Shown one piece after another: positions 20,446 to 45,111 of a stretch of 64,000 nucleotides of DNA. This DNA is from Escherichia phage vB_EcoM-RPN187, in sequence record OL770074.2; one strand, given 5' to 3'. The notes beneath the pieces are model-generated. The model made no database searches. It saw only the letters and a list, made by a program, of their open reading frames with translations, and was not told the DNA's origin. Each line of letters starts with the position of its first letter. Within the stretch, counting starts at the first letter, position 1. A program made the position numbers and the translations under genes.

Positions 20446-20474
20446 ATAATAACACAACCATAGACCTTGTAAAC
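20446..20474 (-). promoter_or_regulatory. early promoter GTTTAC-N17-TATTAT inside palindrome GGTCTAT...ATAGACC
   Basis: Minus strand: GTTTACAAGGTCTATGGTTGTGTTATTATAGACC. Confidence 0.55.
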
Positions 20475-31498: not shown

Positions 31499-31801
31499 TT
31501 ATTTACCTTTAATTACTTTAGCTGCTTCGATAGCCGCTTGCTGAAGGTCATCCATCGACATACCGAATTTAGAAGCAAAGTTATCAATTTTCTTTTCGAC
31601 AGCATTCAAAGGCTTGGCCTGTTTACCTTCATTAGCGCCAGGAAGAGCGAGAATACGCTCTTTGTCAATATAAAGGCTTACAAGTTTCTTACGGTCTTTA
31701 TCGGACAAATCATGAAATGAATGGGCCTTTTTATTTATAGCGGCTTCTAATTTACCTGCACTCACTCGCGCTTCAGTAATAAATTCTTGATATGTTTTCA
31801 T
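31499..31801 (-). CDS. ipII: internal protein II (capsid-targeted, injected)
   Basis: 100 aa; capsid-targeting leader MKTYQEFITE then ARVSAGKLEAAINKK...; recalled T4 internal-protein family. ipII versus ipIII naming rests on length. Confidence 0.7.
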   Translation of the reverse strand: MKTYQEFITEARVSAGKLEAAINKKAHSFHDLSDKDRKKLVSLYIDKERILALPGANEGKQAKPLNAVEKKIDNFASKFGMSMDDLQQAAIEAAKVIKGK

Positions 31802-31842
31802 ATGTTTCCTTTAAATGTAAATAGGCCTAAATATAGGCCTTA

Positions 31843-32421
31843 TTAATTACCACGGGCTGCATTAGCAACGGCGTAAGCGTACTGAACATTAGCGTCTTTA
31901 AACGTACCTTTAGAGGTATCTAGTTCTGCCTTAAAGCCACCTTTAGCCATAACATCGGCAAATTCTTTACGGAAGGCCATTGCATCAAGACCTTTCCATG
32001 ATGATTTGTGCTTGGCGAATTCAAGACCAGCGTAGTTGACAGCCTTAGCTAATTTATTATCAATGACCCATTTACCGGCTTTAGGCACAAACACCGGGCC
32101 TTTCTGTTTAGAGAATAGTTTTAAATTCCAGCGACGAAGATCACTGTCGGCTTTAACAAAAGCTGCGTCTAAGTTACTAGCAACAACATCTTGAATATGG
32201 CCAAATTTAAGCCCATCAACTTCAATATTTAAATCGGTACGCCAGCGAAGTCCTTCCCAAGCGAAGGCTTTAAAATCAGAAGCTTTTGTGGCTAGATATC
32301 GTTCAAGTGGAGCAGTTTTAGGGTCAAAGCCGTTACCGCCACGATAAGTCCACTCGTCCTTATTAATGCCTTGAGCTTTTCCTGCAAAGGCCTCGGCGAT
32401 AAATTCTTTATATGTTTTCAT
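31843..32421 (-). CDS. ipIII: internal protein III (capsid-targeted, injected)
   Basis: 192 aa; leader MKTYKEFIAE; basic Lys/Ala-rich body. Confidence 0.65.
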   Translation of the reverse strand: MKTYKEFIAEAFAGKAQGINKDEWTYRGGNGFDPKTAPLERYLATKASDFKAFAWEGLRWRTDLNIEVDGLKFGHIQDVVASNLDAAFVKADSDLRRWNLKLFSKQKGPVFVPKAGKWVIDNKLAKAVNYAGLEFAKHKSSWKGLDAMAFRKEFADVMAKGGFKAELDTSKGTFKDANVQYAYAVANAARGN

Positions 32422-32484
32422 TTTTGTTTCCTTGTTTGTTTTGATAGAGTAATTATACCATATTAATACTTAAGCGTAAACTGT

Positions 32485-32745
32485 TTAAGCTTTACCGCCG
32501 GAAATAATTCCGAAGTTGTTAAAATCGTATCCAATATCGTCAACATCTACTTTAGGACTTGTAGCAACATAAGCAATTTCACTACGTTTTGCATAGGTGT
32601 TGATTTCTTTACCATCGCCACCTAAGAAAAAATACCCATTACGTTTTAATGAGCCAAAGTCTTCCGCATCACCAATGAAAGCTTTAACTTTAAATTTAGG
32701 ACCTTTGGCATCTGCTTCAGCGATAAATTCTTGATACATTTTCAT
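32485..32745 (-). CDS. capsid-targeting-leader protein (86 aa), unassigned internal-protein candidate
   Basis: N-terminus MKMYQEFIAE-A shares the IP leader and the I-x-E site. Confidence 0.5.
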   Translation of the reverse strand: MKMYQEFIAEADAKGPKFKVKAFIGDAEDFGSLKRNGYFFLGGDGKEINTYAKRSEIAYVATSPKVDVDDIGYDFNNFGIISGGKA

Positions 32746-32751
32746 TTTTCC

Positions 32752-33165
32752 TTAGTAAATTGATTTACCATAGTATTTGTACCAAGTAGGACGTTGAGCA
32801 ATTTTTTCATCTAAGCGTGCTTGACTTATCGCAATGGACGCTTCGGACGGGACATAATTATTACGAAATTCGGCAGGGATGTCGGAAATATCCTGGACAG
32901 TCGTGTCCTTGATTTTGAAACCACGTTTCAAGCATTCAGCGATTAGCTCGATTTGTCGTAAACGTAAAAATTCGAGTTTGTCGTAAAAGAATGTTACGTG
33001 GCCGGTGCCTAAGATAAATGTTGGAGAGATTTTAAAATCCCTTACACGTTTACCGTTTTGAACATGTTTACGGACTGCACTAAATACACGTGGTAATTCA
33101 CGATACTCAGCCATAAGATGTTGGTCGGTCAGTTCAGAAACAAGTGTTAAATTGATACGAGTCAT
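32752..33165 (-). CDS. denV: endonuclease V (pyrimidine-dimer DNA glycosylase) DenV
   Basis: [35 protein letters not shown]...[23 protein letters not shown], near-identical to recalled T4 DenV; ATG at 33163-33165. Confidence 0.9.
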
Positions 33166-33192
33166 AATTTCCTCCAAGTAGTTGATGAATGT

Positions 33193-33222
33193 ATAATATC
33201 AAAACCCTTGGAGGAAGTAAAC
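33193..33222 (-). promoter_or_regulatory. early promoter GTTTAC-N18-TATTAT upstream of denV
   Basis: Minus strand: GTTTACTTCCTCCAAGGGTTTTGATATTATAC. Confidence 0.5.
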
Positions 33223-33223
33223 A

Positions 33224-33505
33224 CTATTTTTCTGAAGCGCCTGAAATATATTTTTCAAGACGTTGTTTCATTAGCGAGCCGTTCTTAGCGATTTCTTCCG
33301 GTTTATCGCACATACGCAACAAGGCTTCAAGCTTAACGATATCGCTGGTACGTTCAAATTTGCGAGTATCTATCTTACTAGCAAGTTCAGAAATACGTGC
33401 TAATAGACTTTCAGCTTCAACCAAAGCTGCGCCTAGCTTAGTTGCAAATGTGTCAGTAGCTTCGTTAAGAATAGATTCTGATAAAAATTCACTATATGTT
33501 TTCAT
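33224..33505 (-). CDS. capsid-targeting-leader protein (93 aa), unassigned internal-protein candidate
   Basis: ATG at 33503-33505 gives [11 protein letters not shown]...; start overlaps the lysozyme stop (ATGA). Confidence 0.5.
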
Positions 33506-35992: not shown

Positions 35993-36022
35993 ACTATAAC
36001 ATAGTCCTATCATGTTGTAAAC
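35993..36022 (-). promoter_or_regulatory. early promoter GTTTAC-N17-TTATAGT with hairpin TAGGACTA/TAGTCCTA
   Basis: Minus strand: GTTTACAACATGATAGGACTATGTTATAGTAGTCCTA. Confidence 0.55.
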
Positions 36023-41058: not shown

Positions 41059-41523
41059 TTATTTAATTTGTTTAGCAGACCAGATACGGTCTTTAATAAG
41101 TTTTTGGATATCTTCAACATACTCAAGGCTATGAGCGTGAGGATTATCTTTGAAGCTATGTGCTCGTGCCAGTTTCTGGCCTTCTGTTTTGATTACTAAA
41201 AGCTCTTTAAGAATTGCTTCATACTTAGAAATAATTCCTTTGGCGATATTTTTTTCTTGAGCGGCTTTAGGGTCCGCTTTTGGCGCAGGTGCTTTACCTG
41301 TAGCTTTCTGGAACAATTCACCTGATGCAGCTAGGCTTTTAAAAACTCGGCTAACAGTATTAGCATTAGTAAAACCTTCGGCTTTAAAATCTCTAATAAA
41401 ACGGAAACGTTCTTCATCAGAGGCGTCTTTGTAAGAATATTTACCTGCTCTAATTGCTGCAATCGCAGCGGCTTTTACATCTGAACTAGATTGTTCAGTC
41501 AAAAATTCAGCGTATGATTTCAT
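41059..41523 (-). CDS. capsid-targeting-leader protein (154 aa), unassigned internal-protein candidate
   Basis: N-terminus MKSYAEFLTE-Q with the L-x-E site; Ala/Lys-rich body; isolated between two terminators. Confidence 0.5.
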   Translation of the reverse strand: MKSYAEFLTEQSSSDVKAAAIAAIRAGKYSYKDASDEERFRFIRDFKAEGFTNANTVSRVFKSLAASGELFQKATGKAPAPKADPKAAQEKNIAKGIISKYEAILKELLVIKTEGQKLARAHSFKDNPHAHSLEYVEDIQKLIKDRIWSAKQIK

Positions 41524-43126: not shown

Positions 43127-43503
43127 CCTTCATCAACAATAGTATGCGTATTGGCATTTACAATTTGCCACCAATCAAAGAGATTAGAACCATACATCAG
43201 TTTGTTTTCATTTTCTTTGATAATATCACGGAGTTCATCTTCAGTGGCGGCTTTCGCGATTAAATCAGCATATCCACCACGAGGATAATAATTATCACCT
43301 GCAAAAAGTAAAAAGTTTGGTTTAATGTTATTGAACTCTTCAAGAGTAATAACTTTTCCTGACGGTTGAACAATCTCTACATATTTATATCCCAATTTTT
43401 GAGCAGCATCTACTGCTTCAAGCAAAGTATCATGAGCCCATCCAATTTGACAACCTGGCTTTTCAGATGGATTAGCCTGATAATCCGCATACACTTTGTA
43501 CAT
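43123..43503 (-). CDS. hypothetical protein (about 126 aa)
   Basis: Coding-strand ORF; likely start MYKVYADYQ. Confidence 0.4.
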   Translation of the reverse strand: MYKVYADYQANPSEKPGCQIGWAHDTLLEAVDAAQKLGYKYVEIVQPSGKVITLEEFNNIKPNFLLFAGDNYYPRGGYADLIAKAATEDELRDIIKENENKLMYGSNLFDWWQIVNANTHTIVDEG

Positions 43504-43504
43504 T

Positions 43505-43690
43505 CTATTCACCTTTAGAAATTTTATCCATAACGATAGCAATTAAACCAATTAAAAATGCTACTACAAGTGAAAACACATTTTCTGCTGTAGTTAATAA
43601 TCCGCATATAAATCCAACAAACATTGAAAAACTAAAAGCGGAAGCAGAAATTGCAATAGCAACATTTCGAATTAATTCACAACGTTTCAT
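43505..43690 (-). CDS. hypothetical small membrane protein (61 aa)
   Basis: Hydrophobic core FSFSMFVGFICGLL...LVVAFLIGLIAIVM. Confidence 0.35.
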   Translation of the reverse strand: MKRCELIRNVAIAISASAFSFSMFVGFICGLLTTAENVFSLVVAFLIGLIAIVMDKISKGE

Positions 43691-43718
43691 TTTATTCTCC
43701 TCTGTAGTTGATAGGGTA

Positions 43719-43748
43719 ATAGTATCACTACCCCATCTAAAAGTAAAC
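43719..43748 (-). promoter_or_regulatory. early promoter GTTTAC-N18-TACTAT
   Basis: Minus strand: GTTTACTTTTAGATGGGGTAGTGATACTATTACC. Confidence 0.5.
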
Positions 43749-44021
43749 TCATTTTAAATAAATTGCGTATTTTTTATAGCCACCAGGCTCGTGTCGAAGA
43801 CCCTTATCATTAGCAAAACGCTCAATGTTGTTAATTTGATTCTGGTCAAGTTCAGAGATGTCAAACACGAAATAGTTACGTTTGTTACCAACTGTTACAT
43901 AGTCAGTTAAATCAATACCATATAGGTAATTGATGTCAGCAATCATAGTCTTGACAGCTTTGCTAATTTTTACTTTTTCGTTAAAAGTAGCTTCATTGAT
44001 AAATTCTTTAAATGTTTTCAT
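43749..44021 (-). CDS. capsid-targeting-leader protein (90 aa), ipI-locus internal-protein candidate
   Basis: N-terminus MKTFKEFINE-A; own promoter at 44053-44082. Confidence 0.5.
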   Translation of the reverse strand: MKTFKEFINEATFNEKVKISKAVKTMIADINYLYGIDLTDYVTVGNKRNYFVFDISELDQNQINNIERFANDKGLRHEPGGYKKYAIYLK

Positions 44022-44052
44022 TTTATTTTCTTAATTAATTTTGATAGGACCT

Positions 44053-44082
44053 ACTATAACATAGTCCTATCAACATGTAAAC
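44053..44082 (-). promoter_or_regulatory. early promoter GTTTAC-N17-TTATAGT with hairpin GATAGGAC/GTCCTATC
   Basis: Minus strand: GTTTACATGTTGATAGGACTATGTTATAGTAGGTCCTATC. Confidence 0.55.
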
Positions 44083-44084
44083 TA

Positions 44085-44348
44085 TTAAATACCTGCTTCG
44101 CGCTTAACATAAGCAACATAAGCTTCGATAGCTTTCTTGCTGGTAATTTTTACCTGACCGCGTCCGTTGCCTTCTTTAGAGTTTTTCTTAACAACTACAT
44201 TACCATCTTTAACACCCCATACATGGACATAAGTACCGATGTTTCGGTCGTAGAACATTGCATGGTCGTTGTTGTAAGAGAATGATTCGTAGTTCTCTGT
44301 CAGAGTAGAAGATTGAGATTCAGCGATAAATTCTTTATACGTTTTCAT
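44085..44348 (-). CDS. capsid-targeting-leader protein (87 aa), ipI-locus internal-protein candidate
   Basis: N-terminus MKTYKEFIAE-S; sits just upstream of 57B where T4 carries ipI. Confidence 0.5.
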   Translation of the reverse strand: MKTYKEFIAESQSSTLTENYESFSYNNDHAMFYDRNIGTYVHVWGVKDGNVVVKKNSKEGNGRGQVKITSKKAIEAYVAYVKREAGI

Positions 44349-44382
44349 TTTATTTCCTTGAGGTCGTTTATTTGATAGGATG

Positions 44383-44412
44383 ATAGTAACACACCATCAT
44401 CCTTATGTAAAC
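44383..44412 (-). promoter_or_regulatory. early promoter GTTTAC-N17-TTACTAT with hairpin
   Basis: Minus strand: GTTTACATAAGGATGATGGTGTGTTACTATCATCC. Confidence 0.55.
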
Positions 44413-44425
44413 TGTTTTGTGAAAA

Positions 44426-45111
<686 letters not shown>

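What the first reader, a model, noticed from the sequence alone, without database searches (positions are those of the whole stretch)
43749..44348. ipI-locus replaced by two different leader-bearing ORFs with their own hairpin promoters
Just upstream of 57B, where T4 encodes ipI, there are two unrelated small proteins (87 and 90 aa) starting MKTYKEFIAE and MKTFKEFINE. Each has its own GTTTAC-N17-TAnnAT promoter with the -10 inside a hairpin. This is the layout expected for interchangeable injected anti-defence cassettes.
Basis: partly seen in the sequence, partly recalled or inferred. Interest (0 to 1): 0.55.

Follow-up and report, generated by a model that had tools for sequence, protein, structure and literature searches.

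The report
Swappable phage internal-protein gene cassettes
Two small genes in a T4-like phage carry the short address tag that loads proteins into the virus head for injection, and they sit in a locus long known to swap such genes. One is the already named Ip9 and the other an unnamed member of the same kind, so this is a clear but ordinary example of a known system.

Summary
On the minus strand, between 57B (an Acb1 homologue) and a trna.4-like gene, where T4 has ipI, lie an 87-aa ORF (44085-44348) and a 90-aa ORF (43749-44021). They share only an 11-residue leader. Each is preceded by a TTTACA-N17-TAnnnT early-type promoter whose -10 box lies inside a 12-bp hairpin (z about -4). The window is 99.9% identical to Mosigvirus AV112.

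This is the polymorphic internal-protein (Ip) locus of Repoila et al. 1994, and the hairpin promoters are the PeSL-like elements of Arbiol 2010 and Comeau 2014. The 90-aa ORF is Ip9 (87% identical to RB15 Ip9). The 87-aa ORF is called "hypothetical" in every record. It is an IPI-type 18-residue leader joined to a domain whose only other relatives are leaderless 73-aa early ORFs in Dhakavirus phages.

Eight related phages carry different cassette sets in this slot, with similarity breakpoints in the promoter, 5'UTR and leader. The hairpin is kept by compensatory changes. Packaging, cleavage, injection and anti-defence action are inferred, and no target is known.

Novelty: a new member of a known kind. 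Interest is low.

The parts
44085..44348 (-). orf87: an 87-aa ORF, candidate unnamed internal protein. It has an IPI-type leader (aa 1-18) and a roughly 69-aa mature domain of the phrog_13302 family.
   Evidence: It is 'hypothetical' in all records. dN/dS is 0.05-0.15.
44295..44348 (-). Leader of orf87, MKTYKEFIAESQSSTLTE. It has two gp21-type sites, IAE(8-10) and LTE(16-18).
   Evidence: It aligns end to end with the 19-aa propeptide of T4 IPI. The cleavage rule L/I-x-E comes from PMC9026906.
43749..44021 (-). orf90: an Ip9 homologue of 90 aa, with a 10-aa leader MKTFKEFINE and an 80-aa alpha+beta domain.
43992..44021 (-). Leader of orf90 (codons 1-10). Its DNA is identical to the leader of RB15 ip7, not to that of RB15 ip9.
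44377..44412 (-). Hairpin promoter P1 (57B to orf87): G+TTTACA (44412-44406), N17, TACTAT (44388-44383), and a 12-bp stem-loop at 44403-44377.
44041..44082 (-). Hairpin promoter P2 (orf87 to orf90): G+TTTACA (44082-44076), N17, TATAGT (44058-44053), and a stem-loop at 44073-44041.
43710..43748 (-). Hairpin promoter P3 (orf90 to the trna.4-like gene): G+TTTACT, N17, TACTAT (43724-43719), and a stem-loop at 43737-43710.
   Evidence: It is also the junction to a T4-type trna.4 allele.
44316..44359 (-). Direct repeat (Shine-Dalgarno region plus leader), copy 1. It is 86% identical to copy 2, which lies 327 nt away.
   Evidence: family D1.
43989..44032 (-). Direct repeat (Shine-Dalgarno region plus leader), copy 2. 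A third, diverged copy lies at 43658-43701.
   Evidence: family D1.
44426..44881 (-). 57B (Acb1 anti-CBASS family). This is the conserved left anchor of the locus.
43505..43690 (-). trna.4-like 61-aa membrane protein. This is the conserved right anchor of the locus.

Best explanation
The two ORFs are cassettes of the polymorphic internal-protein (Ip) locus of T-even phages.

Shown:
- Each cassette consists of a strong early-type promoter with a stem-loop enclosing its -10 box (a PeSL-like element), a short 5'UTR, a conserved leader, and an unrelated small basic domain.
- Cassettes differ in identity, number and order between close relatives, with breakpoints in the shared promoter/5'UTR/leader repeats.
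- orf90 is Ip9.
- orf87 is an IPI-type leader fused to a domain otherwise found only as a leaderless early ORF.

Inferred from established T4 biology:
- The leader acts as a capsid targeting sequence that brings the protein into the prohead core.
- The prohead protease gp21 removes the leader after I-x-E or L-x-E: E10 in Ip9, and E18 and/or E10 in orf87.
- The mature proteins, about 8-9 kDa with pI about 9, are injected with the DNA.
- They then bind and block a host nuclease that would attack the modified phage DNA before any phage gene is expressed. The most likely target is a modification-dependent type IV enzyme of the GmrSD kind.

The hairpin lies upstream of each promoter's own start site. 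It therefore exists as RNA only in read-through transcripts, where it would act as an attenuator or 3'-end stabiliser. As DNA, together with the leader repeat, it provides the homology for cassette exchange.
For: - Locus synteny with T4 ipI.
- Leader residues match the mapped CTS determinants: positions 4 and 7 for targeting, 8 and 10 for processing (PMC9026906).
- Seven leader-bearing ORFs in the window.
- The leader amino acids are conserved through synonymous codon changes.
- The 18-aa leader of orf87 aligns with the 19-aa propeptide of T4 IPI. IPI matures to 76 residues (PMC3012670).
- orf90 is 87-89% identical to the Ip9 proteins of RB15 and RB32.
- Seven different cassette arrangements occur in nine related phage genomes, with breakpoints in the repeats.
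- The hairpins are significant. They are kept by compensatory changes: 81.6% of cells are paired against 35-43% in slid registers, and 22 cells have changes on both sides against 7.9 +/- 2.5 in shuffles.
- The promoters match the published T-even PeSL consensus TTTACW-N17-TAYWAT (PMC4122927).
- T4 Ip1, Ip2 and Ip3 each inhibit a distinct GmrSD enzyme (PMC12373910).
- Leaderless relatives of both domains sit among early small ORFs.
Against: - There are no virion or expression data.
- No late promoter (TATAAATA) lies in the locus. T4 ipI has the same architecture and is nevertheless packaged.
- The hairpins lack a U tract, so they are not canonical terminators.
- The mature domains have no similarity to IPI*, and no informative structural match exists.
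- Ten further ip genes tested against GmrSD variants gave no hit (PMC12373910).
- NicPhage carries orf87 together with a 95-aa ORF in the ipI position, and is reported to be BrxU-sensitive (PMC13390438).
- Ip9-like domains occur in phages without hmC-type DNA, which argues against a strictly GmrSD-specific role.
Confidence: 0.75

Rival explanations
1. One or both ORFs, especially orf87, are ordinary cytoplasmic early proteins. In this reading the leader-like N-terminus is a by-product of recombination in the repeats, and the proteins are not packaged or injected.
For: Only early-type promoters are present and there is no late promoter. Both domains work elsewhere without a leader. IPIII lacking its CTS still complements from a plasmid (PMC9391042).
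Against: The leader and its L/I-x-E sites are conserved at the amino-acid level across synonymous changes. orf87 keeps both sites in all variants seen, including LSE in JK45. T4 ipI has the same promoter layout and is packaged (PMC9026906).
Confidence: 0.1
2. They are packaged internal proteins whose role is structural, such as DNA condensation, help with head assembly or help with ejection. This was long assumed for IPII and IPIII. In this reading they are not anti-defence proteins.
For: The mature parts are basic, with pI 8.9-9.4. IPIII mutants show head-assembly defects (PMC9026906). No target was found for ten other ip genes (PMC12373910).
Against: Presence or absence varies between near-identical phages and the cassettes are swapped freely, which fits accessory arms-race genes. 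All three T4 Ips now have nuclease targets (PMC12373910). Leaderless relatives in unrelated phages cannot have a head-internal role.
Confidence: 0.1
3. The inverted repeats at the promoters are operators for a dimeric DNA-binding regulator, not nucleic-acid hairpins.
For: They are palindromes overlapping the -10 box, the classic position of a repressor site. The motif CCTATCAA recurs in the 3' arm.
Against: Three stem types differ in sequence and one in register, yet complementarity is kept, with compensatory changes at 5 of 9 pairs. G-T pairs in the stems work only as G-U pairs in RNA. Stem-loops of PeSLs were shown to form and to attenuate transcription in RB49/phi1 (PMC2839356).
Confidence: 0.05

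Closest known systems
T4 internal protein I (ipI, mature form IPI*), inhibitor of the GmrS/GmrD type IV restriction enzyme
   Same: It occupies the same slot between 57B and trna.4. It has the same promoter-hairpin-leader layout, the same size class and the same basic pI. The 18-aa leader of orf87 aligns with the 19-aa IPI propeptide.
   Different: The mature domains are unrelated in sequence. No target is known for either window protein.
[not shown]
   Same: orf90 is 77-89% identical over its full length and belongs to the same PHROG, annotated 'internal head protein'.
   Different: The leader DNA matches RB15 ip7 rather than RB15 ip9. Position and partners in the array differ: in the phage collection the orf87-ip9 pairing is seen only in AV112 and AV113.
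PeSL elements (promoter-early stem-loops; Arbiol 2010 PMC2839356, Comeau 2014 PMC4122927)
   Same: An intergenic composite of a strong early promoter, a stem-loop overlapping the -10 box and a Shine-Dalgarno site. It flanks genes that are inserted, deleted or replaced between close relatives, and it matches the consensus TTTACW-N17-TAYWAT.
   Different: The authors call the T-even IP-locus elements analogues, not homologues, of the RB49/phi1 PeSLs. Here the coding leader is part of the repeat. There is no G/C-run stem and no U tract. Terminator activity and mini-circle formation are untested.
Leaderless phrog_13302 ORF between gene 52 and motA in Dhakavirus phages (IME08, IME341, AnYang)
   Same: 66-68% identity to orf87 residues 17-83. 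It has its own early promoter followed by CCTATCAA.
   Different: It lacks the 14 residues TYKEFIAESQSSTL that make up the leader. It sits at a different locus, and it is decayed in one IMG/VR genome.

Membership tests
T-even internal proteins (CTS-bearing Ip family) | N-terminal capsid targeting sequence resembling MKTYQEFIAE, with the targeting residues (aromatic at position 4, Phe at position 7) | tested here: met
   orf87 has Y4 and F7; orf90 has F4 and F7. The determinants are those described in PMC9026906.
T-even internal proteins (CTS-bearing Ip family) | gp21 processing motif L/I-x-E at the end of a 10-19 residue propeptide | tested here: met
   orf87 has IAE(8-10) and LTE(16-18); orf90 has INE(8-10). 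The second orf87 site aligns with ITE(17-19) of T4 IPI.
T-even internal proteins (CTS-bearing Ip family) | Encoded in one of the two variable IP loci (57B-trna.4, or the ipII/ipIII region near gene e) | tested here: met
T-even internal proteins (CTS-bearing Ip family) | Homology of the mature part to a named Ip | tested here: met
   orf90 only: 86.7% to RB15 Ip9 and 88.9% to RB32 Ip9, with phrog_7673 at E=7e-54.
T-even internal proteins (CTS-bearing Ip family) | Homology of the mature part of orf87 to a named Ip | tested here: not met
   orf87 hits only 35 phage records, all 'hypothetical'. It falls in 2 clusters among 1.84 billion representatives, and no source names it. Homology between mature parts is not required by the family, whose members share only the leader.
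T-even internal proteins (CTS-bearing Ip family) | Physical presence in the virion, removal of the propeptide, and ejection into the host | not testable with these tools
   This needs virion proteomics.
PeSL (promoter-early stem-loop) elements | Sigma-70-type early promoter; T-even consensus TTTACW-N17-TAYWAT | tested here: met
   P1 is TTTACA-N17-TACTAT and P3 is TTTACT-N17-TACTAT. P2 is TTTACA-N17-TATAGT, with one deviation in the -10 box. The consensus is from PMC4122927.
PeSL (promoter-early stem-loop) elements | Stable stem-loop within or overlapping the promoter, in the intergenic space between the upstream stop codon and the Shine-Dalgarno site | tested here: met
   z from -4.0 to -4.5, with 0 of 200 shuffles as stable. 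Covariation is shown, and the position.
PeSL (promoter-early stem-loop) elements | Association with insertion, deletion or replacement of the flanked ORFs between close relatives | tested here: met
PeSL (promoter-early stem-loop) elements | Stem-loop acts as a transcription terminator or attenuator | tested here: inconclusive
   There is no U tract and the terminator scan finds nothing at the hairpins. Activity needs a reporter assay or Term-seq.
PeSL (promoter-early stem-loop) elements | Excision of cassettes as mini-circles by recombination between flanking elements | not testable with these tools
   Only the substrate is seen: 44-nt direct repeats, 86% identical and 327 nt apart.
Injected inhibitors of GmrSD type IV restriction enzymes (T4 Ip1, Ip2, Ip3) | Sequence or fold similarity of the mature protein to a known inhibitor | tested here: not met
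   [not shown]
Injected inhibitors of GmrSD type IV restriction enzymes (T4 Ip1, Ip2, Ip3) | Blocks a GmrSD-family nuclease in vivo | not testable with these tools
   Indirect evidence only: NicPhage, which carries orf87, is reported to be BrxU-sensitive (PMC13390438).

The most novel reading that the evidence does not exclude
The leader plus hairpin-promoter unit works as a general 'injection adaptor' that captures free-standing early counter-defence genes. orf87 would be a caught example: the same domain is leaderless between gene 52 and motA in Dhakavirus phages. Ip9 would be another: its domain is leaderless in Guernseyvirinae and Seuratvirus phages and forms the C-terminus of a 755-aa protein in Kuttervirus. 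Because the Ip9 domain occurs in phage lineages with quite different DNA chemistries, its target would be a widespread first-line defence other than a glucosyl-hmC-specific GmrSD enzyme.
Probability: 0.25. Interest if true: 0.5.

Novelty: new member of a known kind. Interest (0 to 1): 0.2.

Why it matters
The system itself is established: a variable Ip locus, a capsid targeting leader and PeSL-like recombination linkers. This finding adds little conceptually.

The modest value is practical:
- orf87 is an unannotated candidate injected protein, present in about 28 Mosigvirus and Tequatrovirus genomes.
- Ip9 still has no target.
- Both domains have leaderless relatives. Pairs of this kind could be used to ask what is gained by pre-packaging a counter-defence protein instead of expressing it early.
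- Mosigvirus DNA is arabinosylated. The targets of these proteins may therefore point to host nucleases that recognise that modification.

Tried and rejected
- Pfam and NCBIfam gave nothing for either ORF.
- Sequence search of the PDB gave nothing.
- The AlphaFold model of orf87 is unusable. Only two sequences could be aligned, and mean pLDDT is 44.7, so no fold search was run on it.
- The word-indexed protein search found only orf87 itself.
- The exhaustive search added a weak hit to a 1331-aa acidic repeat protein (E=2e-5). I regard this as compositional.
- The supplements of Silas 2025 contain neither protein sequence, so it is unknown whether Ip9 was among the ten ip genes tested.
- A literature search for 'Ip9/Ip7/Ip8' returned only unrelated papers.
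- The late-promoter hypothesis was rejected: no TATAAATA lies in the locus.
- The canonical-terminator hypothesis for the hairpins was rejected: there is no U tract.

Full report
**What is in the sequence.** All genes in the region read on the minus strand. In the order of transcription they are:

- gene 2, gene 3, gene 1 (dNMP kinase) and 57A
- 57B (44426-44881; Pfam Acb1, E=7e-59)
- an 87-aa ORF (44085-44348, called orf87 here)
- a 90-aa ORF (43749-44021, called orf90 here)
- a 61-aa membrane ORF (43505-43690, trna.4-like), followed by trna.3- and trna.2-like ORFs
- ten tRNA genes

.

The window is 99.9% identical over this stretch to Escherichia phages AV112 and AV113, genus Mosigvirus. There all the small ORFs are annotated as hypothetical. 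The ORFs lie downstream of 57B in the sense of transcription and 'upstream' only in + strand coordinates.

**The two proteins.** They share only residues 1-11, MKTYKEFIAES against MKTFKEFINEA, with 8 of 11 identical. Both are real genes under purifying selection, with dN/dS of 0.05-0.36 against relatives.

The leader is a family trait of this genome. A motif scan finds six ORFs starting with it, and a seventh starts MKMYQEFIAE. These include IPII-like and IPIII-like genes in the second classical IP locus at 31499-33505.

The review of Black's work (PMC9026906) states three rules:
- Ip proteins have propeptides of 10-19 residues, called capsid targeting sequences.
- Targeting depends mainly on residues 4 and 7, and processing on residues 8 and 10.
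- The prohead protease gp21 cuts after L/I-x-E.

Both ORFs meet all of these: Y or F at position 4, F at 7, I at 8 and E at 10. In different cassettes the leader amino acids are kept while codons differ (Thr3 is ACG, ACA, ACT or ACC; Ile8 is ATC, ATT or ATA). Selection therefore acts on the peptide and not only on DNA homology.

**orf90 is Ip9.**
- It matches PHROG 7673 'internal head protein' over its full length (E=7e-54).
- It is 88.9% identical to RB32 Ip9.
- With a 32-sequence alignment, AlphaFold gives a confident small alpha+beta domain behind a helical leader (pLDDT 88).

The domain without a leader occurs as a 72-74 aa ORF among small early genes of Guernseyvirinae (CR01) and Seuratvirus (KS_A3) phages. 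It also forms the C-terminal 80 or so residues of a 755-aa protein of Kuttervirus maane.

**orf87 is an unnamed member of the same kind.**
- It occurs at 94-100% identity in 28 phage records, all annotated 'hypothetical'. No source gives it a name.
- An exhaustive HMMER search of 1.84 billion cluster representatives finds only its own cluster, one 73-aa cluster (P0019), and a weak, probably compositional hit to a repeat protein.
- P0019 is a leaderless ORF between gene 52 and motA of Dhakavirus phages (IME08, IME341, AnYang). The ORF is not annotated in the IME08 RefSeq record. A decayed copy sits at the same place in an IMG/VR genome.
- The alignment shows that orf87 equals this protein plus a 14-residue insert, TYKEFIAESQSSTL, after MK.
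- The resulting 18-residue N-terminus, MKTYKEFIAESQS-STLTE, aligns end to end with the 19-residue propeptide of T4 IPI, MKTFKEFTSTTTPVSTITE. That propeptide is removed to give the 76-residue IPI* (PMC3012670).
- I therefore predict cleavage after E18, with E10 as a second possible site. This would give a mature protein of 7.8-8.6 kDa with pI about 9.3, very like IPI*.
- Its structure could not be predicted (pLDDT 45).

**The promoters and hairpins.** Three successive intergenic elements share one plan: an upstream stop codon, G+TTTAC(A/T), 17 nt, TAnnnT preceded by TG, about 25 nt containing a Shine-Dalgarno site, then ATG.
- P1 is TTTACA-N17-TACTAT (44411-44383).
- P2 is TTTACA-N17-TATAGT (44081-44053).
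- P3 is TTTACT-N17-TACTAT (43747-43719).

.

Each element folds into a 12-bp stem-loop that encloses the -10 hexamer. Energies run from -14.6 to -16.1 kcal/mol, z from -4.0 to -4.5, and none of 200 shuffles does as well.

In 24 such elements from eight phages the N17 promoter is always present, and 20 have a hairpin with z <= -2 around the -10 box. Three stem types exist (AGGATGATGG.., GATAGGACTAT.., GATGRGGTAG..). On an alignment of 23 elements:
- 81.6% of cells pair in the proposed register, against 35-43% in slid registers.
- 5 of the 9 pairs show changes on both sides.
- 22 cells have changes on both sides, against 7.9 +/- 2.5 in shuffles (0 of 500 reach the observed value).

The sequences are related, so this is supportive rather than a formal proof.

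The hairpins end at or just past the expected transcription start. They therefore exist as RNA only in read-through transcripts. They lack a U tract, and the terminator scan does not pick them up. No late promoter (TATAAATA) lies in the locus. T4 ipI has exactly the same layout.

**Cassette exchange is visible.** The slot holds different sets in different phages:

| Phage | Cassettes between 57B and trna.4 |
|---|---|
| T4 | ipI |
| RB15 | ip5-ip9-ip7-ip8 |
| S143_2 | ip9-ip7 |
| mogra, phiE142 | ip7 and an ip9-like gene |
| JK45, NicPhage | ipI-orf87 |
| ST0 | orf87 alone |
| this window | orf87-ip9 |

In the phage collection only AV112 and AV113 match the whole orf87-ip9 stretch end to end.

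Pairwise BLAST places the switches of similarity in the region from the 3' arm of the hairpin through the first 20-35 nt of the coding leader.
- The stem type follows the position in the array, not the gene. orf87 has type A in this window and in ST0, but type B in JK45.
- The leader DNA of the window's ip9 is identical to that of RB15 ip7, not RB15 ip9.
- The Shine-Dalgarno-plus-leader segments form 44-nt direct repeats, 86% identical and 327 nt apart.
- The trna.4-like gene is 98% identical to T4 in DNA and 100% in protein, while its flanks are of Mosigvirus type. The junction lies at P3.

**How this compares with what is known.** All of it matches published descriptions.
- Comeau et al. 2014 (PMC4122927) give the T-even PeSL consensus TTTACW-N17-TAYWAT with stems of the form AGNA-loop-TCNT. 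They state that Repoila et al. 1994 had seen similar elements at the T4 IP locus and proposed shuffling of the IP palette.
- Arbiol et al. [quoted passage not shown] They say the stem-loops attenuate transcription, and that the two IP loci carry PeSL-like analogues, with more than 30 IP variants known.
- Rao and Black (PMC3012670) describe the Ips as a diverse set of defence proteins sharing only the CTS.
- Silas et al. 2025 (PMC12373910) showed that T4 Ip1, Ip2 and Ip3 each inhibit a different GmrSD type IV enzyme. They tested ten further ip genes without finding targets.
- Srikant et al. 2022 (PMC9391042) showed that IPIII is needed on ECOR17 and works without its CTS when supplied in the host.

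**Most likely mechanism.** The steps, marked as shown or inferred:
- Early transcription starts from each cassette's own promoter (sequence match; activity inferred).
- The leader targets the protein to the prohead core, and gp21 removes it (inferred from the leader rules).
- The protein is injected with the DNA (inferred).
- It then blocks a host nuclease that recognises the modified DNA (analogy only).

Mosigvirus DNA carries arabinosylated cytosines, so the relevant enzymes may differ from those that attack T4 (PMC13390438). The same paper reports that NicPhage is BrxU-sensitive. NicPhage carries orf87 and a 95-aa ORF in the ipI position, so orf87 probably does not block BrxU. The occurrence of the Ip9 domain in phages with other DNA chemistries leaves room for a target outside the GmrSD family.

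**Verdict.** One ORF is the named Ip9. The other is a new, unannotated member of the known kind, with a traceable origin by joining a leader to an early ORF. Interest is low (0.2).

Noticed in passing
window 41059-41523 (-): A 154-aa ORF beyond the tRNA cluster starts MKSYAEFLTE, which is CTS-like with an L-x-E site. It is conserved in 511 phage records and annotated 'hypothetical' in every listed one (PHROG 2280, unknown function). It may be a further packaged protein outside the two classical IP loci.
   Followed up: partly
window 31499-33505 (-): This is the second IP locus. It holds an IPII-like ORF (100 aa), an IPIII-like ORF (192 aa), an 86-aa ORF starting MKMYQEFIAE (phrog_2667) and a 93-aa Ip5-like ORF (phrog_3499). 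A denV-like gene lies between them, next to the lysozyme gene.
   Followed up: partly
window 43501-43728: The trna.4-like gene is 98% identical to T4 in DNA and 100% in protein, but only 74-86% identical to other Mosigvirus phages. The flanks are of Mosigvirus type. This is a small inter-genus mosaic patch whose left junction lies in hairpin promoter P3.
   Followed up: partly
window 36021, 37316 and 20473 (- strand start positions): Three more hairpin promoters of the same family, with 11-12 bp stems and z from -2.4 to -5.8. The two at 36021 and 37316 precede small ORFs in the variable region between gene e and the tRNAs. The stem of the one at 20473 (AGGTCTATGG..ATTATAGACCT) resembles the element upstream of motA in IME08.
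   Followed up: partly
window 44426-44881 (-): 57B, annotated 'RNA ligase' or 'hypothetical' in the phage records, is a full-length Acb1 anti-CBASS phosphodiesterase by Pfam (E=7e-59). The Ip cassettes therefore sit next to a known counter-defence gene.
   Followed up: yes
L013 494-2761 and 2834-3403 (Salmonella phage maane, Kuttervirus): A 755-aa protein ends in an Ip9-like domain (phrog_7673, E=2e-8). It starts MAIPSFLNFLEE, and the next gene starts MKPFIEYFKE. Both N-termini resemble the T4 capsid targeting leader, which hints at CTS-type packaging in Ackermannviridae.
   Followed up: partly
L012 (OR844944.1, 'Enterococcus phage Efm 3-10', UNVERIFIED_ORG): This record carries the same Kuttervirus-like 783-aa gene and its neighbour, so it is probably mislabelled or contaminated.
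   Followed up: no
L005 2495-2716 (IME08, NC_014260) and L015 about 1476-1665 (IMG/VR UViG_2706796756): The leaderless relative of orf87, between gene 52 and motA, is not annotated in the IME08 RefSeq record. In another T4-like genome it is broken by a premature stop codon.
   Followed up: partly
L005 2420-2470 and the elements listed: The octamer CCTATCAA follows the -10 box in most T-even early hairpin promoters examined, including ones at unrelated loci. It forms the 3' arm of the stem, but its conservation exceeds what pairing alone needs.
   Followed up: no
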